DNA of 64,000 nt, from assembly GCA_001724265.1 (NCBI GenBank), contig MEDY01000004.1, positions 124,001-188,000 on the forward strand, in the 5' to 3' direction. Shown here one piece after another: positions 15,601 through 44,600 of this stretch. This stretch comes from Rhizaria sp. SCN 62-66. Its lineage: Eukaryota. How positions within the stretch are numbered: position 1 is the stretch's first letter; every line of letters starts with the position of its first letter. The notes under the pieces are model-generated. The model had not been told where the DNA came from, ran no database searches, and worked only from the letters and a program-made list of their open reading frames with translations. Position numbers and translations under genes: made by a program.

Positions 15601-18600
15601 GCGCGTATTCGTCAGCTGACAGCGCAGGCAGCAGCGTGGGCCCGAATACGATCTCGGAGAGCTCAGTTGATGCCGATGAATGGTTGCGCAACAGGTGGAA
15701 GTGCAGTTCAAGCGTTGAGGCCGAGGCCTTGAGCACGGAGACGATGCGCTTGAAAGCGCCAGTCTCGGCGCGCTCCGGCCACAGCGCGGCAGCCACGAGC
15801 ATCGAGACGAGCACGCCGATGATTGTCATCTTGATACGTGCTAGCGCGAAGGTCTCGGCGCCGATCACGGGATCGTAACCTAGTGCAACAATACTTGCGG
15901 CATAACCAGCGGCAAAACCGATGGGCCCGTTGTTGGGACTTGTGCGCAGGTAGCCAACAATGACGGACCAGAAGCCCAGCAGTGCGGCGTTGGCGAAAGC
16001 CCAGTCAGCACCGCGCGAGGAGTCGATTTCGAGGGCGAGAATTGCGACAAAATAGCCATACATCGCACCGAGAACGTTACCGGCGAGACGATTGAAGCCT
16101 GCGACGAGACTGTTGCCGACAGACTCTGTGAAGATGAGGCCAACTGTTATGGGGGCCCACTGCGGCACGTAGATGGTAAAGGGCCACGGGACCAACAAAG
16201 TCAGCGCACTTATCTCAATTGCAACCACGAAACGCAGCGCCGTCTTGATCTTGGTGATGCCCTTCTCGTCGGGCACCACAAGCCACTTCAGCGCAGATGT
16301 GAAGCGTCCCCACGCAGTGAGCTGCGCCGCGGGCGTGGTCTCCGCTGCGGGCGCGCCGGGCCGCGGCACGGCCGTCATGAGCTGCGGCGGCGGCTTCGGC
16401 GGCCCGTCGCGCGCGCGGCGCCAGAACTCCCACATCGCCGTGAAGACGTGCGGTAGCAACACGTCGACGAGCGAGTCGGCTGTGAAGAGCCGCGCCGGCT
16501 TGTAGTAAGTCGGCACGGGTGCGGGCAGCGGCACGTAGCGAGTCACTGAGCCCAGCCCGAGACCGAACAGCGTCTTGGTGTTGACATCGCGGAGCACCGC
16601 CTGCGCCTGTGATCGCACCGCCTCCTGCGACAGCGCACCGGCATGCGACGGCGGCACGTCGGGCTGCGAGGGCATCACCGTAGGCACCGACGTCAGAGGC
16701 TGCGGCTCCAACGGCTCTGGCGGCGGCGGCAACGGCGCTGTCGTCGTGATGCGGTTCGAGCTCTTGCGCGTGCCGCTGCCGCCCACGGCACCAATGACAC
16801 CGGCTGCAGGCTGCTTCTGCTTCTGCGCCGGGGCAGGCGTCGCTGCGGGCTTGTGAGCAGAAGCCGCAGCAACTGCAGCAGCATGCGCAGAGGCTTGCGC
16901 GGCCGCTGCATGGGCGGCAGCGGAAGCCGCCTCAGCGGCCTGCGCAGCGCCAAGCTTCTTAAGATCGATGGCCTCGGGCACGGCCTCGGCCGAGGCACTG
17001 GCGGCGGCGATGTCGACCATGGGCGGCATGATGTCGTCGGCGTGGGCCAGCGCGACAGGCAGCGTGGTGACGAGCGTGGACAACGGGTACATGTGGGGGA
17101 ACACGTGGGGCGCAATGCGGTGCACGAGGCGCGAGGTGAAGCGGTCGAAGTTAAAGAAGAAGTGGTTCATCACAAGCATGTCCTGCACTTTGACGAACTG
17201 CTGCTCTTCTGCGTGTTGGCGCTGGATCTCCTCGGCGCTCTTGCCGCTGAAGCCGCTCGTGACGGACGCGCTCGATGTGGGGGCGCTGTGCAACGGCATA
17301 GACTCAAGTCCAGGCCCAGTCCCGGGCACAGGCGCAAGCGGGGCCGCGGGTGGCGGCAACGGACCCTTTTTCTGTCCGAGCTGCTGCCCCTGCCACTGAC
17401 CCACACCGAGCGCGGGATCTTGAGCCTGGTCGGGCCCCGACGAGGGCGAGGGTGAGGAGGTCGGCGATGGCGACGCTCGAACACCGTTGCCAGCACAGGT
17501 GCTGGCATTGCTCTCGATGCGATTGAGCGCGTTCATCGAGGTGATGCGCTCGAGTGTGGCGGCCGAGTTAGAGTACTTGCCGCCGAGCCCGCGGGACGAG
17601 AACACCGCTGCGGCATAGTCAGCCGAGGCCTGTGATGACACGTCAACAAACGCGCCGCCGGTGGACAAAACAGGGCCTGCCGAGCCAGAGCCAGTGGCAA
17701 CACGCAGACGGGCGTTGCCCGTGCCCGAGCCAGCGCCATGAGCCCCGTTGCCTCCACTGGGATGGAGTGACCCGGTTGACGAGGTGCGCGACGCAAGCGG
17801 GTGAGCGCCAACAGACGCATTGCCGCCGCTGACGCTGTGGTGCAGCGAGGTGGCCGACGCGGCGGGCCGCAGCCCGGCGACAGCGGCGTGGGGCTGCTCT
17901 GCAAGCGCCATCGCGGCCGTCGTGGGCGGCAGTCCGATGCTCGTGATGGGTCGGTGCGAGAGCGTGTGTGACAGCGGCATCTGCTGCAGCGGGACCGAGG
18001 CCTGGTGTGGGTAGGCCGCGGGCACGGGCTCGTTGTCAGGCTCCACTACGACGCGGTTGCGGAAGAAAACGGACTTGCGCGTGCGCGAGAAAGTGCCCCA
18101 CATGTGGTGCAGCGACGCCATGAGCGTCGTGTAAGAGCCGGGAGCGTAGGGCGCGGAAAACGTCAGTGCGGCGTCGGGCGAGCGCAACAACATCGCGGTG
18201 ACTTCGTCGACTTCTTGCACGTCAGCGTGCTCCGCGGACGCAAACTGTACAGCCTCTTGCGCGTTCGTCGGCGCGTTGGGATCCACAACAGCATTTAAAC
18301 CGGCGCCAGTGTTAGCGGCACCGGCGCCAGCGTCCGAGCCCATCTCGATCGCGATGTGGTCAGGATACACGCTCTCGGCGGCCGCGCTAGTCGCGTCGGC
18401 CGCAGCGCGCTGGACGGGCGAAGTTGGCATCTCACCGGCCAACACGGCCGCAGCCGCGAGCGCGGCGTCGGGCTCAAGTCCGCGGGCCTCGCGCGGCGGC
18501 GGCAGAGCCAGCAGAGCGATGGACATGCCCGTGGCGGCCGCGCGCGGCGAGTCCGGGATCGAGTTGCGCCGCACGCGAGTTGCCACAGCGCCAGGGACGT

Positions 18601-21600
18601 GCTCATGCTGCATAGAGCCCGCAGCGTAGCTTTGGGGCATCGCGTGAAACGGCACGACACCGGGGTTCCCAGCAGTTGCGGCGCCACCAGTGGGCGCGGC
18701 CGTGTTCATGGCGGGGCTGGAGGCTTCGGCGGTGGTGGCAGCGTTGTTGGCGGCCGCAGCAGGCGCGCCTAGCACGAGTCGCACGCGCGCGTGGCGTTGG
18801 CCGCGCACCTCGTCCTCGTCGGAGGATGACTCATCCGCGTCGTTGTCTGGGTCCGCCGCGTGGTCCATACCAGCGACGTACACGCCGAGCTTGCGCAGTC
18901 GGTTCTGCACCGACGCGAGCTCGCGCGCCGCCGTCTGCGACGGCCGCCGCGCGCGCTCCGCGGGCACCGACAAGGTGTCCACGCCCGCAGCTATATCCGA
19001 GGTGGAGTAGCTCTCCGCGCGGCGTGGCACGCCGTCGGGCCCGACAGTGCCTGCGCCGACCGCAAAGGTGCGGCTGCGGCCCAGCACGGTGTGGTTGGTG
19101 TCCTCAGTCGCGCCGGGCAAAGCACCACCCCACGGGCCCTGCGTCTGCGCGTGCAACTGCGCTTGCGGCAGTGTGTTAGCATGTTGGAGCAGACCATGTT
19201 CCCCGTCACCAGCAGTCTCAATGTGCGGGGCGATTCCGGCGGCATCCGAGGCGGCGCGCGCACGCACAAGACCGCCCTTCTCGACATCAAACGCGTCGTC
19301 GTCCTCTTCTTCGTCGCAGACCATGGCGGCGTCACGCGAGGCTTGCTCGGCGACCACGGACCGCGCGCTCTGCTGCACACGACTCGGCGCACCGCGGCTC
19401 TTGCCACCTAGACTGCTCTGGCTGTGGCTGCGGCTGCGGGCCGTCGCGGCCAGGTGCTCTGCCGAGTGCGGCAAAACCTCGAACTCATCAGCAATTGCGT
19501 CAGCCTTAGCGGCTGCGGCGACTTCGCGGAGCTCAAGGTCAGCGTTAAGCGCAGCCGTGGCCTGTTGCACTGCGCGGTCAATGCCGAAAAAGGCGTTGAT
19601 GTAAGTGGCGTCGATAGGCGCAAGGTCGTCGTCCTTGGAGACCATCTTAAAAACGAACTCCTTGACGGCTTTGGTGACGTGGCGCATGTCATACTGCAAC
19701 TCCTTGACAAAGGTGCTGTGCATGTACGCACCCGTAACATCCATACGCGTGATTGTGCTCAGCGCCGTCACCATGCCGCGCGCGTTGGACATCATACCGG
19801 AAACCTCGGCCAGGAACTGCTGCGCTGACGTCGACGAATACGGCACGAACGCAACGTGCTTGGGTGAGCAGAACGGCGGGTAAATCGGGTCAGGTGCACG
19901 GAGACCGAAGCCGTTGTTGCGCTTCATGCGCCAGTGGCGCGGGCGGAAGCAGCAACAGAAGGCCTTGTAGAGCGTCCGGTGCAGCCAGGACTCGGCCTGG
20001 AGGTCAGGCAGCTCGGCAATCGAGGCCGCAACTTCGGCGTCAATCTTGCCGATTAGAAACGTTGCCTCCTTGATGAAGAGGTACGTGAACGGCAGCGACA
20101 CTGTATTCGTGTTGGCGGTAGCGATGTGGAGCCCACGGAGGTCTTTGAGCTCGTGCATGCGGTCGATCTTGTCGCCCACGTCGGGCCCAGGCGCGTCGGA
20201 CGCGCGCGAGTGGTAGGTGCGGTCGTAGTTGCTCTGCGTCTGTGTGTGCGAGTGACCGTGCGTCTGGGTGCCCGATTGTGCGTTCGTGTACGTTTGCGAG
20301 CCTGGGGACGAAAAATGGACGCCGCGGTCGCCGTCTGCGTCCACGCGCACGTTGCGATCGCATCCACTGGCGTGGCCATCTGACCCCGTGACAGTCACTG
20401 GCAGTGACAGCGGCGCGACACAGCTAGCGACGCCTGCGTAGACAGGAGACAGAGGCACCGGCGAGGTCAGTCCTGAGGGCACAAAACCAGAGGCAGAGCC
20501 AGTGGCCACGGTCGCAGTCTTGGGGCGGACCGTTGAAACCGAGGAGGAAGGCGGCAGTGAGGGCAAGATAGGACCTGGCGGCGGCGGCAGCGGCCCCTTT
20601 GCGTTATCGCCAGTTTCGAGCCGCAATGCGGTCACAGGGGAGCTCTCGACAAAGGCCATGGGCGACGACAAGGCCGAGACCGCGGGCATCGTGGGCACAC
20701 TGACTGTAGGCGGGATCTCGGAAGGCGGAGCCATGGGCGCTACGGCAAGCCCCGCAAAGGAGGTGCTACCCGAGAGACCCAGCTCCCGCACAATGTGGTC
20801 CTGCTCGCTGCGGCCGCGGCCCTGGCCATCTCGGTAATCGCTGTCGCTGTTGCTGCTTATGCAGGCGTCGTTGAAGCTCGACGCAGGCTCCAGCCAAGTC
20901 GTCTGTGCAGCTGCTCTCGCACCAGCACCAGCACCGGCGGCGACACCTAAGCGCGCGTCCGAGATCGTGGCGGGGAGAACGCGGGCGCGCGCACCGGGGC
21001 TGCTGTTGGTGGTCACAAAAGAGACCTGTCCGGCCAGGGGAGCCGACGCAAGCCCCGACGCATAGCCGGTCAAAGGGGCGCCGGCCACGGGCGTGGACCC
21101 GTGCGCAGGCGTGCCGTTGGCGGGCCGCACGGCCATCAGGGGCACCATGCCCGGCGGCGCGCGCGCAATGGCGGCCCGCATGGCCGCGTACGCTGCGGCA
21201 CTCGCATTCGCGCTGGCACTGGAGCTCGATCTCCCAGAGGCCACGGGCGACAGTTGCTGCGAGAACGCGTCCAGCGGTGCGTCTGGCAAGCCGGGCGACC
21301 CGGGCCCGGTCGGTGCGGTGACCGTAGGTACGTGGTGCCCAGTAGCCCCGGCCTTACTCCCTGTCGGAGAGCTGACGCCGGGGCTGGCGAGCCCGCCGCC
21401 AACGCCGCCGGTGCCAGTGCCAGTGCCGGTTGGAAACCCGGTGCGGAATCCACCGTCGCCGTGGTCGGGCGCGGCGTCGTGCTGGTCGTGATCGGGGTGC
21501 CGCGCGGGCAGCGAGAGCGTGGCGTCGTCGCGCGTTCTGAGCGTGGTACTGTCGGCAGCGGAGAGAAAGCCGTTGGACAGCACGTAGAGCAGGCGCGACG

Positions 21601-22577
21601 AGTGCACCAGGATGCGGTGGGCGCGCGCCTCAAGCGTATCCGAGGCAAGGTGCGGAAATGGCAGGATCGCCATCACGAGGGCAACAGCGACGCCAGCGAC
21701 GGCGCAGGCGAGCGTGTTAACTGGGTACCACCAGACATCACCGCGCCAGAGGAAGACGAAGATGTTGGCGGCACTGAAGCCCCAGAAGAGGCGCATGTGC
21801 GGCGGCATCATGTCACCCTGCAGCATCGCAAGAACAAAGTAGACGATCGCGGAGCCCAGGCCGATGCCGAGGCGCGAGAACGGGAAGATGAGCGAGACGA
21901 GCATCGGCGTAATGGTCGCAGCGACGAGGCCGTAGATGGCCCAGCGTCCGAGACGCATTGATGAACCTAAACTAGTGGAGGACACCATGATTCCAGGAAC
22001 TACAGTACAGTATGGAATAAATGTGAATTTACCGCGCGTCGTTGGATAGACGCAGAGTAGCACTAGCACAAACGTCGTAATGACAAGACTGCAGAGGAGG
22101 GATAGAAAGAGGGCGAGAGAGTAAGTGAGAGAGGTTGATGGTGAGCGCGTGAAAAGCTTAGAATGAGAAATAAACATGAAGTTAGCGTCAAAGAAAAGTG
22201 CACGATGCACACGGCATTAAATTGGGTTGCTTGGCGAAGGTCCGGCGTCCCCAAGAGCCTCCTGGCAGCAGGCACCAGAGTGCTAACACCTGTTAACCGG
22301 CGCGGGATCGACGGTCTACGTACCGGATAACGCTGCGGACCCGTCCCCAAATCGGAGTCATCTGAATCTTGCGACGAAAGCGCTTGTACCAAGGCACGCG
22401 AACCTGCATGTTGTCCGTGGCGGGAGCGTATGGTTCTGAGGGAAAAGCTGTGTCTTTGATCGTGCGAGCTTCCATCTTGAGCTTGGTGGCCACGACGTCT
22501 TCAAGCCCATCAGTGGGCAAAGGTAGGTCAACCCGCGTGGGTGACCGACGCGACGCAGGGCCGGTGGCGCTGCTCAT
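12647..22577 (-). CDS. Giant FUSC/ALMT (aromatic acid exporter-like) membrane protein, paralogue A; exons ~22577-22324 and 22088-12647; ~3231 aa; in-frame TAG at 13108-13106
   Basis: Two hydrophobic blocks; the second reads KTALRFVVAI...QWAPITVGLIFTESVGNSLVAGFNRLAGNVLGAMYGY...ALARIKMTIIGVLVSMLVAAALWPERA, typical of FUSC/ALMT. The C-terminal ELIARQEAVMEWATERVRIRQLYKIL domain shared with paralogue B lies beyond the TAG in the same frame. Start could instead be the ATG at 22649. Ends TGA. Confidence 0.8.
22089..22323 (-). other. Spliceosomal intron (235 nt), phase 2
   Basis: ATC CG|gtacgt...ctctgcag|T CTT GTC; same position and phase as in paralogue B. Confidence 0.85.
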
Positions 22578-23442: not shown

Positions 23443-23594
23443 GAAGACCCAGAAAAGACGCATATGCGGCGGTATCATGTTGTCATGCAGCACTGCAAGA
23501 ACAAAGTACACGGCCACAAAGCCCAGGTTGATGCCGAGGCGCGAGAACGGGAAGATGAGCGAGACAAGCATCGACGTCAGGATGACAGCGACGA
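23443..23594 (-). pseudogene. Relic 152-bp fragment of FUSC/ALMT paralogue A N-terminal TM region
   Basis: Colinear, no indels, with 21776-21927; about 26 mismatches by hand count (~83% identity); flanks are AT-rich and unrelated. Confidence 0.8.
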
Positions 23595-23886: not shown

Positions 23887-26800
23887 TTAGTCCCAGACGT
23901 TCTTGGCAAGGTGAAGCGCACGCATGGCGAGCGTGAGATCGAGCAAGCACTGGCTCAGCGAGGTCATGGCGTACATAAAGGCCTGCTCAGTAAGTAGGAA
24001 TAGTGTCGGCAGCACAGCATAGCCACCGGGCGTCGTCCTGGTAATGCGGTCACGGCACGATTGGTCGTAGCTACGCATGAGTTCAGCCAGGATCTTGTAA
24101 AGTTGGCGAATACGAACACGCTCAGTGGCCCATTCCATGACTGCCTCTTGCCGCGCGATCAGTTCTTCATCCTCGGACTCATCATCGCTCGTCTCGCTAT
24201 CATCACTCTCATCACTGAGTGCGTCCTCGCCATCCTCCTCGCCGTAGTACTCGTCCTCCACTTCTGCAGCGGCATCCTCGTTCGAGCCGGGCGTGCGCTC
24301 AGTCGCAGCCGCAGCTGTTGACGCGTCTGCGATGGATTGGACCGCAGGGGGCGAGACGCCGACCTGAGATGATCCCCGGTCTTGCGCACTCGCCAACGGT
24401 ACGTTAATCAGTGAGCGACTTGCGTCGGACGCCACGGGGGATTCTTGAACCGAGCCTACAGCAGTCGGAACAGGTGCACCCGCGATCGACGCGACGCCAG
24501 CTTCTGTGGCTGTTGTCGCTGCCGCGCCCTGCTGTTGCTGCAAGGGTGAGAAGACGCTCGCAAGCGAGACCGAGGGAGCAGGAGGAAACCGTGCGCGCGG
24601 GCGGAAGCTGGCGCCATGTCCGCCGACTGACATACCAACACGCGCGCCAGCAGCGGCCGCGGTGATCGTCGCCCCAGGCGAGGGCGCAGGCAGGGGCGTG
24701 GCCCCAGTGCCTGAACGGCGCGAGGAGATGGTGTTGTATGCGGTGACTTCAACGCGCGCCATAAAGTCTGCAAGCTTGCGGCGGCGCTGCTCGCGCTCGC
24801 GCTCCTCGCGCGCACGGGGATCAAGCGCCATCAGCTGCTGCAACCGCGCGTGCGACTCAGTGTGGGGCAGCCCGCCAGCGGTGCCCCCGCCCAGCGGCGG
24901 CGATGGTTGCGGAGAGACATGCGCGCCCGCAACCAGGGCGGGGCTTCCTTGGCGCGGGATCAAGGAGGTGCCGTTGCCTGCAACGGCATTGAAATTGGGG
25001 CTCGAGTTGTTGTGAGCGTGCATCATGTCGACAATCGAGGTGAGGCTCTGGCGCGGAACGGCGCTCACAATCCCGGGCCCAAAGCCCGTGCTGGTGCCCG
25101 AACCAGCGTTGCGGTGGCTGGTGTGGGACGCGTAGACAGTCTGGGAAGACAAGACGCGGCCCAATGGCGGCAGACGCGACGAGCTGCCCACGCGACTCAG
25201 CACCGGCAACGCAGCCGCACCAGTATTTCTGGGGCCGAAGCCGCCAACAGAGTCGTACGCTTTGCCATTGCTCATTAGCGAAGCGCGCGCCTGCTGCAGA
25301 GCACCAGCTGTCGGCCGCGGAGATCCAGCAAACGGACTCGGGGCGCCTACACTGCCAGCAGCACTGGCACAGGCAGCGGGTGGCGATCCGCGGCGCTTAG
25401 CATCTTTGCGTGCCTGGCGTTCGCGTTCGCGCTCCTCCGCGCGCAAACGCGCTTTTTCACGCTTGCGGCGCAGGCGAGCGCGATCGATTTCACCCTGCGG
25501 ATCGTAGTCACCATCAAAGTCATCATCGTCCTGCAGCATCGCAAGCTCTTCCATTATATCAGCGTTCGGCGAGATCCCCGCGGGCGCGGGCGACGGGCGC
25601 AGGTGCGAGGCCGACGAGTTACGCGTTAATGGTCGGCCCGCGGCTTGCGCCAGCGCAAGCGCAGGTGTGGATCCTGCAGGCTCCGCGCCGTTACCCGCGT
25701 TGCTTAGGGGGGTAGAACCACGAGATGAGGCCGGCGCCGCGCCTGCTGGTGACAGCATCGCACGGTTTGGACTGGGCGAGCGCGCTGGACCAGCACCCGT
25801 GGCGAAGGACGCACGAGAAAGATTTCCAGAACTGGCGGACTGTCGTAGTCCAGGCGGGCGCGAAGGATGCGACGAAGGCGGCGGCAGCAGCAACGATGTT
25901 GGCGGCAACAACGATGATGATCCGGCGGGCGGTCCCACGACAGTGCTGCTTCTATTAAGTTGAACAGAAGCTTGTGCTGGTGTAGTCAGAATCTGGGTCT
26001 GCACTTGATCATGTGCCTGCTTCTGCGCTTGCTGCTGTACCTGCAGAGAAAGCAGCTCGGCCTGCTTGCGATGAAGCGCCTGCTCTTGTGTTTTACTACT
26101 CTCAAGCATCGCGTTCAGCTGTGCCAGCTGCTGCTGCAACTGCGCTTGCAAACCTACGCCGTCTAGCGGCACTGAAGTGCCTTGGGGCGCAGTAGCACCA
26201 CGTGGCGCAAGGGTGCCTGATGGCGCTGTGTTGCTCGATGACACTGCTTCACCAGGCGGCGCCGCAGTTCCAGGAACAAAAAGTCCAGTTGTGAGCACAG
26301 GCGTAGTCATTAGCGTCACAGACGTTGCGGGCTGCTGTGGCGCAGGTATGGAAGCTGTGGTTAAGGCAGCCGTAATGGGCTTAGGGGTTGAGACACCAGA
26401 GGCTGCAGGCTCAGCGGGCGGCGCAACAACGAGGCGCAGCGGCGCGTTAGGCGCCTGTGTCGGGGCGGAATCGTTATTTTCTGCAGGTGAGAGAGTGACA
26501 GTAACGCAAACAGGTGACAATACTGCCATCTCAAGGTCTCCGCTATTGCTTCCATTATTGGCACTGATGGCCATTTGCTCGCGTGCAGGCTCAGGTTCGC
26601 TATCGTCAGGACGATGTCGGTTGCGGCGATGGTTGCGGCCACCCACGCGCGTATCATCATGTGCCGAGGACTTGGTGTCGTCGCAGCAGCAACTCTTGCA
26701 AGGCAAACAACTGGCAAGCGGCCCAAGGCAGCCCGGACAGCCTCCACGCTTTTTGCGCGAGCGCCGCGCGGCGAGCACGGGCGCGTCCACATCATGCACT

Positions 26801-29800
26801 TGCAGAAACGAAGGCATCGGCACCAGACCCGCAACGTTGTGCTCAACACGGCGGTTCACGTCGTGGATTAACACGATCAGGATGCGGCATGCCGCTGACA
26901 CGAGATCCGACATGAGGGTCGCGGTACGCACGGCCTCGCCCCGGATGCGATCCGTGTCAGGGATGGAGGTGCCGTGGGGACGGTCTACACGAGCAACCTT
27001 AGGCATGCGCGAGATAACCCAGTGGTGCGCAAACAAACACTCTTGCATGCGACCCAGCACCCGCACGAGCGTGACTTGATGCGTGATGACTTCGTGCAAA
27101 ATGTCGGACGGAAGACTGCGACCAAAGAGCGCAGGCTCAGACAGCACATCGTTGGCAAATGTGCGCTGGTCCGCGATCGCAGACGACATCGCCGCAAGTT
27201 TAGCTGCAACTTCGCGCTCATACACAGCCATAAAAGAGGTTGAGGAACACGTCGCGACTGCAGTCTCTGGAAAGATAACGCGGAACATGTGCCGCATCGC
27301 CGAGTTGGCCGCGAATGGGTTCAGCAGCGGCGCAGGCGATTTAAACAGACCAGGTGTCGGCACAGCAGTAACCAAGCCTAGCGCTGTTACAGGCATTGAT
27401 CCACGTGCATCTTTGCTGGCAGCCGTGTCTGCTGCTCCACCACTAATACCTGCGGCTCTAGACTCTGCAACGGCTTCGTCATCAGCGGAGAGGGCGGGCA
27501 ACAGCGTAGGACCAAAGACAATCTCAGAAATCTCTGCAGAGGCTGCTGAATGGTTATTGAGCAGGTGTAGGTTGAGCTCAAGACAAGATACCGATTCCTT
27601 GAGCACACGTGCAATACGCTTAAAAGCGCTTGTCTCAGCACGTTCGGGCCACATGATGGCGGCAACAATGGTGGCTGCGAGAATTCCAAGCATAATCATC
27701 TGGATACGCGCGAGAGCATAATCGTTGGCGCCACGCTTGGGGTCGTAGCCGAGCGCAATTGTGTTTGCGGCAAAGGACATGATAAGACCCATGCCACCGT
27801 GCCGCGGCGAGCTGCGCACGTAGCCTGAGATGAGAGCAAAAAATGACAACATACCGATGTTGGCCAGCGCCCATGTCTCGCCTCGCAGAGGGTCAATTTC
27901 GTAACAGATGGCGGCTGTAACGTAGCCGTACATGGCACCAAAGACGTTACCCATGATACGATTCATTGCCATGACGAGACCACCACCAATAGATTCGGAG
28001 AAAGCAAAACCTACAGTTAGCGGCGCCCACTGCGGCTGGTAAATTGTGAAAGGCCACGGCACTAAGACAGTCAGCGCCGCCACCAAGTGCGCAACAGTAA
28101 TTTTGATCGCCAGTTGCAGCAATTTGCGCTGCTTCGGACCCCACTCTAAGAGCCAGCCCAACGCCTGACGAAAACGCTCCTTGAAAGGCGCCTGCGCGCT
28201 GGACGCCGGCACGACTGGCGCGGGTGCGGCCGGCACCTCACCGTGTTCGCCAACGCCACCCTGCACAGCAGGCAGCTGCTGGACTACGGGCGTGGGCGTG
28301 CCATAGCAGCAACGCTTAACGAACTCGGCCAGCACAAGAATGCAGTAGGGCGCAAAGAACTCAACAATTTCACGAAGGGTCGCCAACCGCGGCGGCTTGT
28401 AGTAACCGGGCACGGGTGCGGGCAGCGGTACATACCGCGTCACTGAGCCTAGTCCGAGGCCAAACAGAGTTTGCGCAGTCACTTGACCCGCAGCAACGCT
28501 TGCACCCGCAGCGGCCGCGGCAACGAGTGCGGCAGCTGCTGCAGGTGATCCAGGTGAGATGGCGTCGGCAAGCGATGTCTCATCCTCAGCGACATCGATC
28601 TCCCCGCCCGCCGCCAGCGTCGGCATGATATCGTCGGCGTGCGCCAGCGCCACGGGCAGCGTGGTAACCAGCGTTGAGAGAGGGTACATGTGGGGAAACG
28701 CATGCGGGGCGACCTTATGCACCATGCGCGACACGTAGCGATCAAAGTTGAAGAAGAAGTGATTCATCACGAGCATGTCCTGAATTTTAATCATTCCAAT
28801 CGACTCATCTTCTTCTTCATTCTCATCCCCTGAGTCTTGGCCTCCATTGCTGCCCATACGGTTCTTGATACGCACGCTCTTCTTGCCAAGACTGTGAGAT
28901 GAACTAGAGCCAGAGACTAGGCGCTTCGGGCCGCCACGACGAGCAGACCTGCGCTTGCGCCCCGCAGCACTGCCACTACCAGTGTTCAGGCCACCAAGGC
29001 TATGTGTGCTGGTGCTGTCGAGCCCGTTGGAGCGGCTGTGCTGGTGATAATTGCCGCTGCTACTACGCTCTGGTACAACGGGCAGCGGCGGCGCATTGGG
29101 CGGTGGTAGCGGCTTATGCGGCGGCACTGTTGTCGACACAATGGGTGTTCCAACGGCATTGCTGTTGCTCATGTTGCTGATGCTGTTGTGGCTCGCTGCA
29201 TAGTTGAGTCCGGTCTTTTGAGCCACACGCTCGAGCGCGACGTCCGAGTTGGAGTAACCACCAAAGGCAGAGAACACGTTGGCGGCGTAACTGGCGGCTA
29301 CTTGTGAGGGCAGATCAACGAATGATCCTCCCGCGGAGCCTGTGGCAACGCGCAGCCGCGTGCGCGTGGCCGCGAGTCCGCCCTCAGTCGCCGGCTGCAG
29401 ACGAATTGGCGCCTCACTGACGGTGCCCGAGCCGGTGCCACTGATGTTGGGTTGCGGCAGCGATGCGAGGCTTGTGAGCGAGGGAGGACGCACCATCGAC
29501 TTGACAGCGGCGTCAACGCGCAACTCAACCTCAGGGTCCAGGTTTGACATTACATCCGCGGCCGCAGCTGCTGCAGCAGCAGAGGCGGCGTCTGCGGCGG
29601 CGACGCGTTGGCGGAAGAAGAGTTGCTTGCGCGTGCGGGAGAAGGTGCCCCACATGTGGTGCAGCGAGGCCATTAGCGTAGTGTAGGAGCCCGGCGTGTA
29701 GGGCGCGCTGAGAGTCAGCGCCGAGTCCGGCGACCGCAGCAACATAGCCGTTACGTCATCGACGTCTTGCACGTCAATGACCTCGGTCCGCGGTAGCGTC

Positions 29801-32800
29801 TCTTGTTCGTTCCATACCGTGTTAGACCGGCGCTCGCGCACGCCGGTGCTGCCAACGCCAGTGGAACCGGCGGCAGAGGGCGCGGAGCCGGCAGACACAG
29901 CAGCAGCGGCAGCAGTGGCCTCAGCAGAGAGTGTGGCCGCGGTCCCGACAATGGCGTTGGAATCGGGCAACAGACCCATTTCAATCGCAGTATGTCCGCT
30001 TCCAGGAATACCAGGAATCGCGCCTGTCGCAGGATTCACGGGCTCGACAGTGCCTGCGGCAACGCCGGAGCGCGGCGGCGGCACGTAGAGCGGCCGCAGT
30101 GTCGCCGTTGCCCCGCCAGTAGAGGCTGACGGCGGCGCGAGCGAGATCTGAACGCGCGCGTGCCGGAGTCCCGGCGCGGCCTCGTCGTCAGAGTCTTGGT
30201 CTGCGCCAGTGTCGAGGTCGGGGTCCGCCGTGTTGGACGTCACGCCCTCGACGAATACGCCGAGCCGTGCCAAACGGCTTTGTACGCGCGCGGCCTCATA
30301 CGCCGCCGCCGTGCCCGTGTGTCCGGTGCCGTCGACAGGTGAGCCGGCCCAGGAGTCTGAGATGGATCCGCGCCGCGTAGCGTCACCGTCAACAAGCATG
30401 AACTCCCCCACCGCGGAGGAAACACTTTGTTGGCGCGCGCGCAGCGTACGCGCATGCGTGCTCGTTGACGGCAGCACAATGCGGTTCGCAGGCTCGCGTG
30501 TGCCCTGCGCCACAGCTGAAAAGTCGTCCTCGTCCTCCTCCTCCTCCCCTTCCTCAGCGACAGTAGCACTGCCGTTTATCTGCATGTGCTACGCAGCGGT
30601 GCGGCGTGACGAGATCGATTGCGAGGGCGGGCGCTGACGCGAAATCGAGCGCGAGCGCTTAACCAATGACTCGGGTACAGTAAAATTGTTGTTATCAACC
30701 GAAGGAGCTCCCCCCAGGTTTGCAGGATGTGGGGGGGCAGCATCACCAAGCACCGCAGCGGCCTGTTGTGCAGCGCGGTCAATGCCAAAAAATGCGTTGA
30801 CATACGTCGCATCAATGGCGCGCGCGGCATCGGACTTGTTGATAATCTCAAAGGCAAAGTCCTTGTATGCGCGCGTGACGTGGCGCATGTCCGTCTGTAG
30901 CTCCTTGACAAACGCGCGGTGCATGATAGCGCCAGAGATGTCCATCTTTGTGATCGTAGTCAGCGCCGCAACCATGCCACGCGCGTTTGAAACCATACCA
31001 GCAGCTTCTGCAAGGAACTGGCGCGCAGAACCAGGGGAGTAAGGGGCCTGGAAGGCTTGGCGCTCTGACAGGAACGGTGGGTAGATCGGGTCCGGTGCAC
31101 GGAGCCCAAAGCCGTTGTTGCGCTTCATGCGCCAGTGGCGCGGGCGGAAGCAGCAACAAAAGGTTTTGTAGACGGCACGATAAACCCAAGATTCGGCTTC
31201 AAGATCAATGACCTCTGCCATGGATGCCGCAACATCGGCCTCAATCTTATCGATGAGGAAGCGCGCCTCCTTGATGAAAAGGTATGTAAAGGGCGACGAC
31301 ACAGTGTTGGTGTTGGCCGTCGCATAGTGCACACCACGCAGTCCCTGCATCTCGTGCATCTTATCCAGCTCGCGCCCGCTGCCGCGCAGAGAACCCCGTG
31401 CACTCGCCAGCTGCCGCTGCTTAAAGTTGCTCTCCACAGTCTTTGGTGGACCACGGGCGCCAGCAAGCACGGCCGCGGCGACTTCAGCTGCATCAGAAGC
31501 GGCGAGCGCGGCGGCGCTGACGGGAGCGACCACATTGGCGGGGTTGGCAATGTAGATGCCGCTGCTGCTGCGACCCAGCTGTATGCCCGGAAGAGGCTTC
31601 TCCGAGCCGGTCTGCGAGTGCGACTCGGAGCGCGCCCGGTCAGAAGCCAACGGCTGTGGAGACACGGGCGAAAACAGTTCACCAGGCGGAGGCAGCGGAG
31701 CTTTATTATTGCTCTTCGCACTCTTTTGCGAAGCACCTGAGTTAGAGCGCGCATCCCTCGTTGCAGTCGTGTTGCTCACAGCATGCGGGGGTGACACACC
31801 GGGAAAGTCATCACCCTCATCTGATGAGCTAATTGCACCGAGAGAATCCGCGCGCCGGACGCGCGGATCTGCGCGGTCTCCATCCGCGAAGCCACTGCTG
31901 TCAAAGTCATCGTCGCCGTCGCCGATGGGCGAGAACACTGCGTCAGAGTCTCCGCTCAGCGAATAGTCGAGCTGTGCAGCGGCGCCACGCTCAGCGTCGA
32001 GATCGGCGCTAGGTGCGGCCGCAGTGCGCGGGGCGGAGCGCGTCTCGGCCACAGGCGATGTCAGTGCAAAAGGCGTCGGCAACACCACATGTGCCATTCC
32101 GGACATGGGTGGCGTCGCCAGCGCCATCGGCTGCAGCCCTAGAGGCTCAATCGCAACCGCAGGCGGCTGAGCTGGCGGCATGGCAGGCAGCAAAATCGGC
32201 GTTAGGCCCAGACCGCCGGGGCCAGAAACAAGGGGCACAGGGACACCAGCAGCTGGGACAGTCGTCGCAGCAGGAACTATCGATGCAGGGATGGAGAGGG
32301 GGGCAACAGCTGGCGACGCGCGCGATTGCGGGGCGGCAAACGCGCCAGCACTCAGGGGACCCGCGCGCGGTGACGGCACCACGGCCTGTGGCAGCGTGAC
32401 AGTGGGCGGGATCGTGCCAGTGGGCGGCAGCGTAAGCATCGCCGGCAGCGTTAGCGGGACGGTGCCCGCGAGCGGCAGCACGCCGACGCCACCCAGAGGC
32501 AGGCCGAAGGAGGCGGCGTCGGGCAACGGCAGCGGCGGCGAGAGCACTGCACCCGTGGTCAGGTGAGGCTGCTGCGCGAGAGCGTTTGGGGGCATCGGCA
32601 TGGCACTTCCGCGAGGGAGCACTCCCAACGGCAGCGCAGTCTGCGGCAACGTGAGCTGGACAGGTGATGCGGAGTGCACTGGCAGCGCAGGGTTTAGTAG
32701 GCCGGACTGCGGAAGCGCGCCAGGCTGCAGCGGCACATGCGGCATAAGCGGTGAGAAAGCAGGCGACCCATGAAATTGCGGCCACACCGGCGCCGGCGCG

Positions 32801-34860
32801 CCGCTAGGACCGCCCGTCGGCGCAGTCCCCACGGGCAGCGGCGCCGCGGTGCCGGCGGAGAGTGAAGAGACGCCTGTGATGCCAACACCGCCGGACCCAG
32901 GGCCAGAGCCGGGGCCGGAGCGCGGGTTCGCTGTGGCCGCGGCGGCCGCGCTGACTGGGGGCAGCATGCCCGCGACCGTGGGCAGCGAGCCGGGGGCTGA
33001 AGGCAGCGAGCCTGGCACAGAGGGCAGTGAGCCCGGGATCGTGGGCAGCGAGCCATAGGCCATGTACTGGGACTTCTGCTGACCCAAGCTTTGCGCAGTG
33101 ACCGTGGGCACTGCGCTGGCGGGCGGCAAACCAGCGGGCACCGCAGCTGCGCCAGGTGCGGTCGACTGCTGCGAGTCGAGCCCGGAAAGCGACTGCACCG
33201 AAGCCACGCGCGCCTGCAGTCCCAGTGACAAACCACTCGGGGGCGCGGCTGTCGGTGCAGCTGCAATGTGTTGTGGTTGTTGCTGCAAAGGAGTCGGACG
33301 AGGAATAGCGAGTGCGAGATCAGAGGCGGGTTTCTGCCCAGTCGGCACGGATTGCAAGCCAAACTGCGCCGGATTCGCGAAGGGCGTCAGAAAGCCGGTC
33401 ACCGTTCCAACCCCCAAGCCGTTGCCTGTGCCCGAGCGTGCAATGGCAAGCACGGTAGGCGCGGGTACGGGCGTGAGCTGCGACGAGTTTCGCGACAGCG
33501 ACGGCGAACGCGACCGCGAGCGCGGCTGCCGCGAGCGCGAGCGGGACCGCGACCGCGCACGAGAGCGGCCAGCGGGGGCCTTCTTGCGCGGCGCAACGCT
33601 GTGTCCAGCGGCAGCGCCGGTGGCACTCTTGCCGTTGCGCGGGCGCGCGGACTGGAGGCCAAGCGGCAGCCCTCCGGATGGGAATACCGCATCGACATCA
33701 AAGCCGGCGCTGCCGAGGCCGACGCGGCGCGCGGGCTGGCCTGAGGCCGGCACACGTGCGCCGCCAGAGCCGCCACCAGTAGAGCCTGCGACGACAGCCG
33801 CAGCGACGGCGTCAGTCGTGGCACGGGTGTTGGCGTCGACAGAATCCTCGGCTGCACAGAGAAAGCCCTTGGAGAGCACGTAGAGGAGGCGCGTGGAGTG
33901 AGTGAGCACGCGGTGCGCACGCACCTCCATGTTGTCGGAGGCCGTAAGCGGGACGGGAAAAAGCAGCGCTAGCACGCACATGCCGACGCCGACGAAGGAG
34001 GAAATGAGGGTGAAGAGTGGGCGCCACCATCCCTGACCGGGCCAGACAAGGATGAAGAGGTTACACGCAGCCTGGGACCAGAAGAGGCGGAACTGCGTGT
34101 TAGGTGCGCTGCCTTGAATGTACGTGCCAACCAGCATGGTAAGGCCCAGACCAATGCCGAGCCCCAGCAGAGAGTCGGGAAGCAGCACGGATACAGCGAC
34201 GGCACAGACAGCGGCTGTGACGATACCGTTGAGCGAATAAACAGCGAGACGCAGGCTTGCTCCGAAACTAGGCCCGCATACCATGACACCTGGAACAACA
34301 GCACTATATGTTTTGAAGTAGTCCCGGGTAGCAGGCATGAGGCAGATAAACAACGTGGCGAACGTTGACAGAACAAGACTACAAAGGGGAGAAATGATGG
34401 GATGAAATCGTTAGCATGAGACGCTGCTACAGTGTCTGACACAAGCATCAAACGTTTAAAAGGTCAATTCATCAATTCACAAAACACTGATATATTATGA
34501 TGGTGGATTGGGCTTTGCAGCGTTGAATAAACAATTACAGCGTTATGAGAATTGAATAATTGACCATGAAAGTTTGTCGTACCGGAGTGCACTGTGCGAG
34601 CGGGTCCAGAGGGGCATGGCTTCAAGCTTACGCTTAAGGCGCCAAAACCAGGGCATACGCATGTTTTGTTCGTCGTCGAGCGTTGCAAACGTGTCTGGCA
34701 GCGTGGCGGCAGCGAGCGACGATGCCTGGTGTTGTTCCTTGGCAGATGGCTGAAGCTGCAACAGATCATCCAGCATCTGTCCGGCCGCGCCCGTCGGCAA
34801 TGACGCACCGGGCTCCCCAGCAGATGTAAACTCGCCACCACGGCGGGACGAGTCTGACAT
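23887..34860 (-). CDS. Giant FUSC/ALMT-like membrane protein, paralogue B; exons ~34860-34583 and 34378-23887; ~3589 aa; in-frame TAG at 30591-30589
   Basis: ORFs 30589..34353 and 23887..30585 are in one frame, separated only by TAG CAC. Both halves match successive parts of uninterrupted paralogue A (FCCCFRPRHWRMKRNNGFGLRAPDPIYPPF before; DVTAMLLRSPDSALT...LHHMWGTFSRTRK after). Ends TAA. Confidence 0.85.
32953..33054 (-). repeat. Degenerate 21-nt coding tandem repeat (GSLPxxP, 4-5 units)
   Basis: Protein reads GSLPTIP GSLPSVP GSLPSAP GSLPTVA GMLPPV. Confidence 0.8.
34379..34582 (-). other. Spliceosomal intron (204 nt), phase 2
   Basis: CTC CG|gtacga...gctaac...ccctttgtag|T CTT GTT; position conserved with paralogue A. 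Confidence 0.85.
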
Positions 34861-35482
34861 CACGAACAGGGGATTGCGCTCGTGGCGCACGTCAGAGCAG
34901 ACAAGAGGAAAAGAACGCGGATAGGTTGCTCCAGGTCCGACCTCCAAGTTCCTTGTGATTACAGAGTTTTTCTTAGAGCCTAAGGAGTGAACACAATAAA
35001 AAAGTATAGAAAATGGTGTGTAATGATGGATGATCACATATTTGTTTAAAAATATCGATGCTGTGGCCGTCAATGTGCAAGAAAACGTGAGCCGATGACG
35101 AAACAATTACACCGTCGTCTTAAAGTTTCTTCAGTCACATTTTTGACGGTGATAACCAAAGATTCCTGAATATTAAATGTTCGGGTCAAATAAAAAACAT
35201 TTCCTAAAGACGGAACAAATGTGTTATTTTAAGGTTCACGTTTAAAATGCGTTGATAAATAGAGTCAAAGTTCATGGCCATTCGTGTTGGGATATGAGCC
35301 ATTTTTTCGGAACCGCTCGCGAGAGCAGATGGCGAAGACAGCCCGAACTTTGGCTTTACGCACTGCTCAGATTAGAGCTGGTACATCCGTGTGTTAGTAA
35401 TTCTGACGTCAACTTGGGAGTCTTCGCTCACTATCCTATCTTATTCTTATTTAACTTTTTTATGCGGCACAGCGACAGGGTC

Positions 35483-39221: not shown

Positions 39222-39263
39222 AAATTATACTTACGCTTATTTAAATAAGCGTAAGTACAATTT
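39222..39263. repeat. 42-bp near-perfect palindrome abutting the methyltransferase stop codon
   Basis: aaattatacttacgcttattt|aaataagcgtaagtacaattt; 20 of 21 pairs are Watson-Crick. Confidence 0.9.
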
Positions 39264-41657: not shown

Positions 41658-44600
41658 ATGTCGCAGCTTCGTGCGGCCCGTCGCACTCGCGACAGCGACT
41701 CTGACCCAATTGAAAAGGAGCTCCGCGCCGCCCAGCGCGAGCGTGAATCTATTTCCGCCCACCTGGCTGAGGTGGAGGCGCGTGTCAAGAAGGAGGAAGA
41801 GCAGCGCCGCGCTTCTGCCTCTCTATTGTCGCGTGACTTTGCCTACCACGAGAGTGTCGCACGCTCACGCTTCCCCATGGCCGTCCCTATTAACGTGCCA
41901 ACCAACAACCTTGAGCTCAGCTCTACTCTTGCCACTGTCGGCGCCGCCGCGCGCCGCAGCCCGGCCGCCTCCCCGCATCGCTCTTCCGCAGCCGCGACCA
42001 ACCGCGCCGCGCCGGTCTCCGCGCGCGCGCCCGTGCCGGCTCCGCGCGTGCCCATGGCCTTTGCGGTTACACAGACGGACCGCTCGTCGCCGCTGCTCGG
42101 CCCCACGCCCGCCAGAGAGCCCGTTGCCTCCGCCGCAACCGTTTCTGTGCTGACTGAGACGGAGCCCTCGCAGCCACAGTCGCCTCTGCGGCCCTCCGCC
42201 CCGGCTACGGCCGCGCCCGCCGTGGCGTCCCCCCGCAACGCCGCGGCCGCGCAGCGCCCCGGCACCGCACGCCGCCGCGCGGGCACGGCTGCAGCGGCAT
42301 CGAAGCCGCGCGCCAAGAGCCGCCAGGCCGCGCGCCGCGCCACAGCCGTAGCGCCCGCTGCGGCGCCCGCTGCGGTGACGCCGGCTGGCGGGCAGGCGCA
42401 GGCGCAGTGTCAGACAATGTACCAGATGCAGGACGACGCCACTGAGGCCGCTGAGACCGACGCGGAGGCCGACGCCGAGGCGGACACCGAGGCAGACGAG
42501 CACAAACAGGCTCAATTCCCGCAACAGTGCGAGCTCGCGCTCTGTGACGAGGACCCCGACGCTACAATGGCCGCCGACTGCGCCGCCGCCGCTGCCGAAG
42601 AGCTTTGCGCTGACGCGGACGCCGACGCAGAGCCCACAGAGCCCGCCGAGCCTGCCGAGCGGTTCGACTGGGACGGCCCCGCGTTCGCGGCCGCGGCGGA
42701 GGCCGAGGCGGCCGAGCGCGAGGAGGCGGCGCGCCGCGCGGCGGACCCGGCGGCGTGCGCAGGACTTGTGATCACGCAGGTGCGCCACACCGCCAGCATT
42801 GCTGACTGCGACGCTGACTGCGACAGCGAAGGCGACGCGGATAGCGACGGCGGCGGCTTTGATGCGGGGCAGAGGTAGCACGCTGCGCTGGTGCTGAGTA
42901 TGCAGGGAGGCGAGACAGAGGCGCGGTCCCAGGGCCAGGAAGCGTACGCGCTGTCATCCTGCCACGTCGTCTCGCTCACCCCACTCGACTCACACGAAGA
43001 CATCGTTGACAACAGCGTGAAGTACACTAATGTGGAAGTCGCACCTGCAGTCGACCCGGCCGCAGTGGCCGCCGCTGCCGAGGCCGCCGCAGCCGCTGTG
43101 GCGCCCGCCGTGGCTGCCGCAGTAGAGGCCGTAAGCGCGCTTGAGGCGGCGCAGCAGCAGGCGCGCGAGGAAGAGGCTGCTCGCGCGCGCCGCGAGGAGG
43201 CCAAGGTCAAGGCCGAGTCGCGCGCACTACGGGCGCAGCTCGCGCAGCAGTTTGCAGCGCAGAAGGCCGCGTTTGCACAGCAGCAGCGCGAGCAGTTGGA
43301 CGAGCTTGTCGCTGCCTCAGCTGCAGCTGCCGCGCATCAGCAACAGCAGGCGCAGCAACAGGCGCAACAACAAGCGCAGCAGCAGGCTTTGGAGAGCGCT
43401 GAGGAGCGCGAGGAGCGCCGCGCGCGTCTGCGGGCGTTCGAAGAAGAGCGTGCGCGGCTTGAGCGTGAGCGCGATGCCATGCTGCGCCGCGAGTCAGAGG
43501 CGCGCGTTGCCGCAGCCGACGCGGCGGCCGCTACGGCTGAGGCTGAGCGCCGCGCCGCCGTTGCCGAGCAAAATGCCGTCGCCGCCGCCACGCGCGCTGC
43601 GGAAGCCGCTGAGGCTGTTGCCGCCGAACGCGCCACGGCCGCGCAGGCTGAGCGCGCGCGTGCCGCTGCTGAGAGCCGCGCTGCTGAGACAGCGGCGCAG
43701 GCGGCGGCTGAGCGCGCGGCCGCGGCTGCGGAGCGGGCCGCGCTCGAACGGACCATGTCTGCGGCGGCCAACGAGCGCGTGGCCGCCGAGCTCGCCGCAG
43801 CCGAAGCCGCGGCCTCGCGCAGGCTGGCCGCCGCGCGCACCGCGGCGGCCGAGCGTGTGGCCGCTGAGCGCATCGCGGCAGAGCACCGCGTAGCCGACAG
43901 GGTTGCAGAGGAGCGCCGCGCTGCCGACGCGCGCGCCGCTGCTGCCGCGGCTGCTGCTGAGGAGGCGAACGCCAAGGAGCGCGCTCAGGCTGAGGCGGCA
44001 CGCGTGGCCGCTGCGGTCGCCGCAGAGCAAGCGCACGAAGCGCGTGCACGCGAAGCTGAGGCGGCGGAGGAGGTTCGTGCTGAGCGCGCGCGCGCCGCCG
44101 ATGCTGAGTTTGCAGCGGCACGCGCGCGCGAAGTGGCCCTGCAGCAAGTGCTTGCGATCGAGCAGGCCCGCGAGGTCGAGCGCGAGCAAGAGCGCGCTGA
44201 GCGCGAGCAAGAGCGCGCTGAGCGCGAGGCTGTCCGCGAGGCCGACGCGGTGGAGCGTGCAGCGCAGCGCGCGGCGGAGCGCGAAGAGGCCGATGCGCGC
44301 GAGCAGCAGCGTGATGAGCAGCGCGCACACGAGCGCGCTGCACGGGAGGCTGAGCGTGTCGCGCGGGACGCAGAGCGCGACGAGCGCGAGCGCGCCGACC
44401 GCGAGCAGCTCGAGGCTGAGCGCGCTGCTGCAGCCGCTGAGCGTGAGACCGCGGCTACTGAGCGCGCCGCTGCGGCTGCGGACCGTGCCGCGGCGGTTGA
44501 GGCTGAGCGCGCGCGGCTTGCTGCGGTCCGTGGGCTGGCGCAGGAGCTGGGCGCGTTGCGTGAGCAGTTCAGCGCACACTCTGCAGAGGCGCTTGCGCGC

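What the first reader, a model, noticed from the sequence alone, without database searches (positions are those of the whole stretch)
30589..30591. TAG splits paralogue B where paralogue A is continuous
GCT GCG TAG CAC ATG CAG: the 1254-aa and 2232-aa ORFs are one frame with no spacer. Paralogue A has the same ordered conserved blocks unbroken here, and B is unbroken where A has its TAG. The two genes act as reciprocal controls.
Basis: seen in the sequence. Interest (0 to 1): 0.8.

Follow-up and report, generated by a model that had tools for sequence, protein, structure and literature searches.

The report
Stop codon recoded in wastewater protist
The apparent stop codon in the middle of this transporter gene is not a break: this single-celled organism seems to read the stop codon UAG as an amino acid, most likely glutamate, all over its genome while still stopping at UAA and UGA, a version of the genetic code that we did not find described.

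Summary
The TAG at 30589-30591 (minus strand) is real, identical in contigs from two other studies, and joins two ORFs into one 3483-aa ALMT/FUSC-type transporter; an outside homologue is unbroken. It is not special to this locus. In about 193,000 predicted codons of this genome, 34 TAG lie inside coding segments against 1 TAA and 1 TGA, while TAG follows only 3 of 145 segment ends, none convincingly. The only eRF1 gene found carries an in-frame TAG at a column that is Glu in 106 of 117 homologues. The genome has one intact tRNA gene with anticodon CUA whose acceptor end and T stem match its tRNA-Glu(CUC). Best reading: nuclear UAG is a sense codon (about 0.93), most likely Glu (about 0.75 overall), with UAA and UGA kept as stops. 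Seven literature searches did not find that combination. UAG is very rare (0.5% of Glu codons), and eRF1 keeps the known UAG-reading residues, so decoding may still compete with termination. Any 3,000-codon gene here has about even odds of one TAG, so the A/B reciprocity is expected by chance. There is no RNA or peptide proof, and the lineage is unresolved.

The parts
30589..30591 (-). In-frame TAG of paralogue B, residue 1250 of 3483; read as a sense codon, probably Glu
   Evidence: identical in contigs of two other studies
23887..34338 (-). Paralogue B: one 3483-aa reading frame ending in TAA; ALMT/FUSC_2-type membrane transporter with long low-complexity linkers. The true 5' end may include an upstream exon (not resolved). 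Held in the protein library as two halves (P0246, P0247).
27595..28116 (-). ALMT (PF11744, E 3e-6) and FUSC_2 (PF13515, E 1e-5) match in B, aa 2075-2248, downstream of the TAG
   Evidence: Atlas first hit 0.92 to ALMT/FUSC_2 clusters
12647..22177 (-). Paralogue A: 3176-aa frame ending in TGA, tandem duplicate of B. Held in the library truncated at its TAG (P0248).
13106..13108 (-). In-frame TAG of paralogue A, in a His-rich linker, ahead of the conserved C-terminal block
8228..8230 (+). In-frame TAG in an unrelated gene (frame 7679-12085), coding-like on both sides
42876..42878 (+). In-frame TAG in an unrelated gene (frame 41637-49265), coding-like on both sides
23443..23594 (-). 152-nt relic, 83% identical to A's N-terminal coding block (21776-21927), lying between B and A
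   Evidence: D6; coding-like segment

Best explanation
This eukaryote has reassigned nuclear UAG from stop to sense, most likely glutamate, and keeps UAA and UGA as stops. SHOWN in sequence: TAG is nearly absent at coding ends and sits inside exons of unrelated genes, including the only eRF1 gene found; one intact tRNA gene has anticodon CUA. INFERRED: that tRNA derives from tRNA-Glu (one anticodon change from CUC), is charged by GluRS and decodes UAG; B and A are therefore single polypeptides of 3483 and 3176 aa. INFERRED history: UAG was lost as a terminator and captured by the suppressor, but stays the rarest codon, entering by single mutations (from CAG, GAG and others) at weakly constrained surface sites.
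For: Stops treated equally in one gene finder: internal TAG 34, TAA 1, TGA 1; first stop after segment ends TAA 76, TGA 66, TAG 3 of 145, against 21% TAG expected from intergenic triplets, p 9e-12. eRF1 exon (G000:C63) has TAG in an ungapped column with E 106, D 10, V 1 of 117 homologues. UBE2J1 site: D 37, N 32, H 17, S 13, T 11, E 8, G 2, Q 0 of 120. Pfam bits summed over 7 sites: E 652.2, Q 650.3, K 649.9, D 647.9, S 645.2, Y 639.2, L 637.0, W 634.6. Two ABC-transporter paralogues share one TAG, and a second TAG faces GAG in the paralogue. tRNA-CUA at G000:C84:76008-76080, Rfam 58 bits, all stems paired, single copy. It has the same T stem and first five acceptor pairs as tRNA-Glu(CUC), with two-sided changes elsewhere, and a Glu-type pattern finds only it and 8 tRNA-Glu(CUC) copies, 9 of 9 matches. 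TAG counts rise with rare-codon use (3, 7, 11, 17 by quartile) like AGA+ATA (11, 35, 45, 76).
Against: The Pfam lead of E over Q and K is only about 2 bits, and no TAG was found at an invariant Glu. By the two specific columns D scores close to E (3.1 vs 3.8 bits), and tRNA-Asp and tRNA-Glu(UUC) were not recovered for comparison. Whole-length identity of the CUA tRNA to tRNA-Glu (47 of 73) ties with tRNA-Thr. One ubiquitin-like copy has TAG where the organism's ubiquitin has CAG, several TAGs lie in poly-Gln runs, and flanking composition is not Glu-like (E minus Q = -4, against +71 for GAG). The closest eRF1 relative has Val at the site. eRF1 keeps E55, Y125 and N129, and T32S left human eRF1 active at all three stops (PMC3632111). 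UAG use (0.5% of Glu codons) is far below known cases. No RNA contig or peptide spans a TAG, and no related tRNA-CUA was found in metagenome contigs.
Confidence: 0.75

Rival explanations
1. UAG is a genome-wide sense codon but means Gln (as in Iotanema and two phyllopharyngean ciliates), or Asp or Lys.
For: TAG opposite CAG in a ubiquitin-like copy; TAGs inside poly-Gln runs; Pfam sums for Q and K within about 2 bits of E; D fits the UBE2J1 column best.
Against: Q is seen in 0 of 117 and 0 of 120 homologues at the two specific columns. The CUA tRNA is 52-55% like tRNA-Gln and lacks its acceptor stem. Context tracks the mutational neighbour, not the meaning, for other very rare codons (AGA looks like G/S, ATA like T, CTA like P), so CAG-like context is expected under Glu too. 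The ubiquitin-like copy is an atypical fusion.
Confidence: 0.13
2. UAG is still a stop that eRF1 reads; the suppressor tRNA or a leaky context gives only low-level readthrough at a few tolerated sites, so most B is made as a 1249-aa piece.
For: TAG is the rarest codon, 38 of 192,584; one tRNA-CUA copy against 8 tRNA-Glu(CUC); eRF1's UAG-reading residues are intact; 6 of 41 TAGs precede a His codon, p 3e-4 post hoc.
Against: Genes hardly end in TAG; the essential eRF1 gene needs substantial readthrough; no structure downstream of B's TAG; C at +4 is 17 of 41, no more than background.
Confidence: 0.07
3. B's TAG is the 3' end of an in-frame intron, or is removed by RNA editing (UAG to UGG).
For: Phase-0 introns ending in TAG exist here and explain 4 of the 11 kinase matches with a TAG and the 1 kinesin match. 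A GT donor 90 nt upstream of B's TAG is in frame.
Against: The 45 introns modelled are 107 nt or longer with 30-50% GC and mostly GTACG donors; the candidate is 90 nt, 64% GC, with a donor seen 0 of 45 times, and scores as coding. eRF1's TAG fills one ungapped column. Trp scores 17.6 bits below Glu.
Confidence: 0.03
4. Nonsense mutations, pseudogenes or assembly errors; B is two genes.
For: One TAG-bearing kinase frame (L121) also has an internal TAA and may be decaying.
Against: Same TAG in two other studies; mutation would give TAA and TGA too (34 vs 1 and 1); only one eRF1 gene was found and it has a TAG; homologues are unbroken.
Confidence: 0.02

Closest known systems
UAG-only nuclear reassignments: rhizarian exLh (Leu), Iotanema spirale (Gln) (PMC5304391); phyllopharyngean ciliates (Leu, Gln) (PMC11687900)
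   Same: UAG is sense, UAA and UGA remain stops; single CUA suppressor tRNAs were reported in two ciliate MAGs.
   Different: Predicted residue is Glu. Use is 0.5% of the amino acid's codons against 18.5-31.8% of Gln or 6.5-10% of Leu codons, with 78-91% of genes affected (PMC11687900 section 10). GC-rich exons.
Oligohymenophorea sp. PL0344 (UAG = Glu, UAA = Lys; PMC10553269)
   Same: UAG = Glu through tRNA-Sup(CUA) most similar to tRNA-Glu.
   Different: There UAA is also sense and ten CUA tRNAs exist; here UAA is the commonest terminator and there is one CUA tRNA.
Blastocrithidia and peritrich ciliates (UAR = Glu; PMC12153298, PMC11687900)
   Same: tRNA-Glu(CUA) decoding UAG; reassigned codons avoided in highly expressed genes.
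   Different: Both UAA and UAG are Glu there; AT-driven history in Blastocrithidia; here only UAG and GC-rich coding DNA.
Plant eRF1 readthrough/NMD autoregulation (PMC5397192, listing and abstract start only)
   Same: eRF1 level could be sensed by termination on its own mRNA.
   Different: Here the stop-type codon lies inside the N-domain coding region and a dedicated suppressor tRNA would compete; untested.
ALMT / FUSC_2 (aromatic acid exporter-like) membrane proteins
   Same: Pfam matches at or just over the cut-offs in B and A; Atlas clusters ALMT/FUSC_2.
   Different: Over 3,100 aa with long low-complexity inserts; substrate not tested.

Membership tests
UAG-only stop-to-sense nuclear code (exLh / Iotanema type) | In-frame UAG inside conserved coding regions of unrelated genes | tested here: met
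   eRF1, UBE2J1, 5 kinase domains, ABC paralogues
UAG-only stop-to-sense nuclear code (exLh / Iotanema type) | UAG not used as terminator | tested here: met
   3 of 145 segment ends, none convincing (one is TAG then TAA); ends include some intron borders; sample is under 3% of the genome
UAG-only stop-to-sense nuclear code (exLh / Iotanema type) | UAA and UGA remain stops, not internal | tested here: met
   1 TAA and 1 TGA internal in 193,404 codons; 142 of 145 ends
UAG-only stop-to-sense nuclear code (exLh / Iotanema type) | Cognate suppressor tRNA(CUA) | tested here: met
   G000:C84:76008-76080, on a contig with eukaryotic genes of the same codon style; expression not tested
UAG-only stop-to-sense nuclear code (exLh / Iotanema type) | eRF1 change that weakens UAG recognition | tested here: inconclusive
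   T32S (T in 117 of 117 homologues) and T58K (shared with 1 of 117); but human T32S was largely unaffected (PMC3632111); E55, L69, S70, Y125 kept
UAG-only stop-to-sense nuclear code (exLh / Iotanema type) | Widespread use of the reassigned codon (most genes) | tested here: not met
   About 1 TAG per 4,700 codons against 78-91% of genes in the ciliate cases; typical of known cases rather than strictly defining
UAG-only stop-to-sense nuclear code (exLh / Iotanema type) | Residue confirmed by proteomics | not testable with these tools
   No peptide data
UAR = Glu codes (peritrichs, Blastocrithidia) | UAA also encodes Glu | tested here: not met
   UAA internal once, terminal 76 times; a UUA-anticodon tRNA was not searched for
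Locus-specific programmed readthrough | UAG is an ordinary stop elsewhere in the genome | tested here: not met
Locus-specific programmed readthrough | Stimulating 3' context or RNA structure | tested here: inconclusive
   No unusual fold (z -0.59); CAC follows B's TAG and His codons are enriched after TAG (6 of 41)
Pyrrolysine system | tRNA-Pyl identity (G1-C72 with G73) | tested here: not met
   U1-A72, G73, canonical cloverleaf (PMC9976931 passage); ARAGORN's 'Pyl' label follows the anticodon (my reading)
Pyrrolysine system | PylRS and PylBCD genes | not tested
ALMT/FUSC_2 transporters | FUSC_2 or ALMT membrane domain above the Pfam cut-off | tested here: met
   B: ALMT 26.8 bits (cut-off 20.6), FUSC_2 25.6 (25.6); A: FUSC_2 25.8

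The most novel reading that the evidence does not exclude
The organism is a living ambiguous intermediate of stop-codon reassignment: eRF1 still reads UAG part of the time while one tRNA-Glu(CUA) competes with it, which keeps UAG the rarest codon in both roles, and the UAG inside eRF1's own N-domain exon works as a feedback switch (more eRF1, more termination on its own message, less eRF1).
Probability: 0.2. Interest if true: 0.92.

Novelty: new variant of a known kind. Interest (0 to 1): 0.74.

Why it matters
UAA and UAG almost always change meaning together; a nuclear code with UAG = Glu and UAA = stop would add a combination that my searches did not find in print, outside ciliates as far as genome style shows. 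Because UAG is rare both as a stop and as sense, the genome may show an early or incomplete stage of reassignment, where codon capture and ambiguous-intermediate models can be told apart. In practice such a code is nearly invisible: at one TAG per 4,700 codons most genes annotate normally and only long genes get split or truncated, as B and A are in the protein library, so similar cases may be missed in eukaryotic metagenome bins.

Tried and rejected
First coding classifier was swamped by antisense frames and was replaced. Domain matches with a TAG inside: kinases 11 of 142, of which 5 exon-internal, 4 intron ends and 2 inside introns; kinesin 1 of 54, an intron end; MRP model 0 of 22; ubiquitin 1 of 23. 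One exon-internal kinase site (L120) lay in an unconserved insert and was left out of the Pfam test. Of 22 further TAG windows scanned, only UBE2J1 had the TAG inside a Pfam match above cut-off. Dropping two doubtful sites (L159, L121) leaves E 480.9, K 479.0, Q 478.9, D 478.2. Flanking-composition classifier: rejected after calibration on other rare codons. PDB alignments for three sites gave D/S, A/Y and L, uninformative; one search used too strict a threshold and returned nothing. Metagenome scan for Glu-type CUA tRNAs: 11 loci, two other tRNA sequences in prokaryote- or phage-like DNA, no relative. Pattern for tRNA-Glu(UUC)/Asp found no convincing gene among 7 matches. RNA run X6 covers parts of both genes but no listed piece bridges either TAG; X5 is patchy. 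Lineage: WDR36 and eRF1 searches gave only unnamed close relatives (76%, 55%; 84%) and named hits at 28-35% and 62-69%; no polyubiquitin junction was recovered. Earlier findings were not available.

Full report
OBSERVATION. Read through, B is 3483 aa and ends in TAA; tandem paralogue A is 3176 aa, has one TAG at residue 3024 and ends in TGA. Both carry an ALMT/FUSC_2-type membrane domain. Blocks flanking B's TAG are contiguous in A, and A's post-TAG block is 82% identical to B's C terminus. An exhaustive library search with B's break region gave 5 hits: B's two halves, a truncated A, and two outside homologues, of which P0249 has every block from N to C terminus in one chain. Contigs of two other studies carry the same TAG without differences. 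Runs holding half or more of the stretch are labelled bioreactor or wastewater metagenome, one unlabelled; one may be the source of this DNA.

THE CAUSE IS GENOME-WIDE. The window has two more in-frame TAGs in unrelated genes, and the long genes whose ends I inspected stop at TAA or TGA. The window lies in a 34.9-Mb eukaryotic assembly. I trained a simple gene finder on window genes and ran it on the window and most of the fetched DNA. With all three stops given the same penalty, 193,404 codons contained 34 TAG, 1 TAA and 1 TGA at least 30 codons from either segment edge. The first in-frame stop after segment ends was TAA 76, TGA 66 and TAG 3 times of 145. Those ends include some intron borders. 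Of the three TAG, one continues as coding, one is TAG directly followed by TAA, and one looks non-coding. Intergenic triplets would give 21% TAG (p 9e-12). The sample is under 3% of the genome and partly chosen for kinase and TAG-bearing loci. TAG is the rarest codon (38 of 192,584 after merging overlaps) and rises with rare-codon use like AGA and ATA. At this rate B and A each have about even odds of one TAG, so their reciprocity needs no explanation of its own.

The eRF1 search found three matches: one eRF1 gene and two exons that read as Pelota by my reading. The eRF1 exon has an in-frame TAG filling one ungapped column, E in 106, D in 10 and V in 1 of 117 homologues (3 fused hits of 120 were dropped). 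An essential gene with a TAG in its N domain cannot be a pseudogene unless a second copy is missing from the assembly.

THE tRNA. A pattern search gave 28 matches; ARAGORN on 27 of these loci (one overlapping locus omitted) found one tRNA with anticodon CUA, at G000:C84:76008-76080, Rfam 58 bits with all stems paired, single copy, between ordinary eukaryotic genes. It shares the whole T stem, the first five acceptor pairs, U11-A24, U13-G22, A46 and a four-base variable loop with the genome's tRNA-Glu(CUC), and differs by two-sided changes in other pairs; U11-A24, U13-G22:A46 and lack of residue 47 are listed as E. coli Glu determinants (PMC9976931, passages), but the two D-stem pairs also occur in this genome's tRNA-Gln. 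A Glu-type pattern returned only this gene and 8 tRNA-Glu(CUC) copies. Against: whole-length identity to tRNA-Glu (0.64) ties with tRNA-Thr; tRNA-Gln gives 0.52-0.55; tRNA-Glu(UUC) and tRNA-Asp were not recovered.

WHICH RESIDUE. Pfam scores under eight trial meanings over seven sites put E first, 1.9 bits above Q, 2.3 above K, 4.3 above D, and 13-18 above Y, L and W. The UBE2J1 column is D 37, N 32, H 17, S 13, T 11, E 8, G 2 of 120. Combining the two specific columns with recalled background frequencies gives E 3.8, D 3.1 and Q -9.3 bits; the sequences are not independent, so this is a rough guide. In two ABC-transporter paralogues one TAG is shared and another faces GAG. Contrary signs: a ubiquitin-like copy has TAG for CAG, some TAGs lie in poly-Gln runs, and flanking composition is not Glu-like. 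Calibration shows that for very rare codons context reflects the transition neighbour rather than the meaning, which weakens these signs without removing them. Glu is favoured because columns point to an acidic residue, GAG is one base from TAG, and the tRNA is Glu-like. No TAG was seen at an invariant Glu.

RIVALS AT THE LOCUS. An in-frame intron ending at B's TAG would be 90 nt, 64% GC, with a donor seen in 0 of 45 modelled introns (107 nt or longer, 30-50% GC); the stretch scores as coding. Such intron-end TAGs do exist and were removed from the counts. Editing to Trp is disfavoured by the scores. No readthrough structure follows the codon. RNA evidence is lacking either way.

MECHANISM AND THE BOLDER READING. 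Shown: codon distribution, tRNA gene, eRF1 sequence. Inferred: charging with Glu and efficient decoding. eRF1 has T32S, unique among 117 homologues, and T58K, shared with its closest relative. Iotanema's T32G was linked to UAG loss (PMC5304391 and PMC9161772, passages), but human T32S was largely unaffected, and the residues tied to UAG reading (E55, Y125, N129) are kept (PMC3632111, passages). PMC4381064 (passages) adds only that T32A is lethal in yeast. So eRF1 may still compete at UAG, which would explain why UAG is rare in both roles. eRF1's TAG exon is in the top 2% for codon bias, where the chance of a TAG in a gene of that length is 2-3% (8% at the genome-wide rate). That hints at a feedback switch; against it, the closest relative's eRF1 has Val there and reads unbroken. 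The His-codon excess after TAG (6 of 41) is unexplained and post hoc.

COMPARISON WITH PRINT. UAG-only nuclear changes listed as of December 2024 are Leu, Gln and Ser (PMC11687900, passages and section 10). UAG = Glu is known only with UAA also reassigned: PL0344 (PMC10553269, passages), peritrichs, and Blastocrithidia (PMC12153298, passages). Searches listed no paper whose title or abstract start describes UAG = Glu with UAA and UGA as stops; the library lacks most subscription journals, and I opened no supplements, where code tables could mention this organism. Use is also far lower than in known cases (384 UAG in 71 exLh genes). Lineage is unresolved: no named close relative. Its ubiquitin genes begin Met-Ser-Met, reminiscent of the one-residue insertions at rhizarian polyubiquitin junctions (PMC12930898 and PMC13746701, passages), but no junction was seen, so this is a lead only.

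VERDICT. [quoted passage not shown] Reassignment of UAG about 0.93; Glu specifically about 0.75; ambiguous decoding with eRF1 feedback about 0.2. Interest 0.74.

Noticed in passing
L032:1596-1594 (-) = G000:C63:103465-103463: In-frame TAG inside the N-domain exon of the only eRF1 gene found; the gene also has T32S, G57S and T58K by human numbering.
   Followed up: yes
L039:1489-1561 (-) = G000:C84:76008-76080: Single tRNA gene with anticodon CUA, Glu-like body, followed by a T run.
   Followed up: yes
41 internal TAG sites, including window 13106, 30589, 42876: 6 of 41 are followed by a His codon (CAC 5, CAT 1) against 2.3% overall; unexplained, post hoc.
   Followed up: partly
L031:1501-5945 = G000:C706: AT-rich, divergent 18S rRNA gene with four group I intron matches; the insert before the first two may encode a His-Cys box homing endonuclease (my recall of the motif, not tested).
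   Followed up: partly
L157, L160, L161, L164 (G000:C3, C168, C182): Ubiquitin is unusually divergent, starts Met-Ser-Met and occurs as single monomers with a short tail; some copies look damaged or misassembled.
   Followed up: partly
L159:1501-2100 (+) = G000:C681: Ubiquitin-like domain with a TAG, fused to a region that recalls an intramolecular chaperone domain of virus-like elements (recalled, not tested).
   Followed up: no
L121 (-) = G000:C148: Kinase frame of an expanded family holding several TAG and one internal TAA; possibly decaying.
   Followed up: partly
L144:1246 and L147:1246-1254 (+): Two ABC-transporter paralogues keep a TAG at the same codon; one has a second TAG two codons on, facing GAG.
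   Followed up: yes
window 23443-23594 (-): Relic copy of paralogue A's N-terminal coding block between B and A.
   Followed up: no
G000 tRNA set: No tRNA-Glu(UUC) or tRNA-Asp(GUC) was recovered by patterns although GAA and GAY codons are common; the search was incomplete.
   Followed up: partly
window 746-63999: Other genes: Hsp70-like (746-2947), WDR36/Utp21 (35294-38989), methyltransferase (39263-41242), Snf7 (49981-50631), TPR protein (51420-53048), lipoate/biotin ligase (57372-58958), WD40 protein (59080-63999).
   Followed up: no
L192-L202: Two other CUA-anticodon tRNA sequences in public metagenome contigs: one in nine 35-38% GC contigs, one in two 59-63% GC prokaryote-like contigs; unrelated to this organism.
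   Followed up: no
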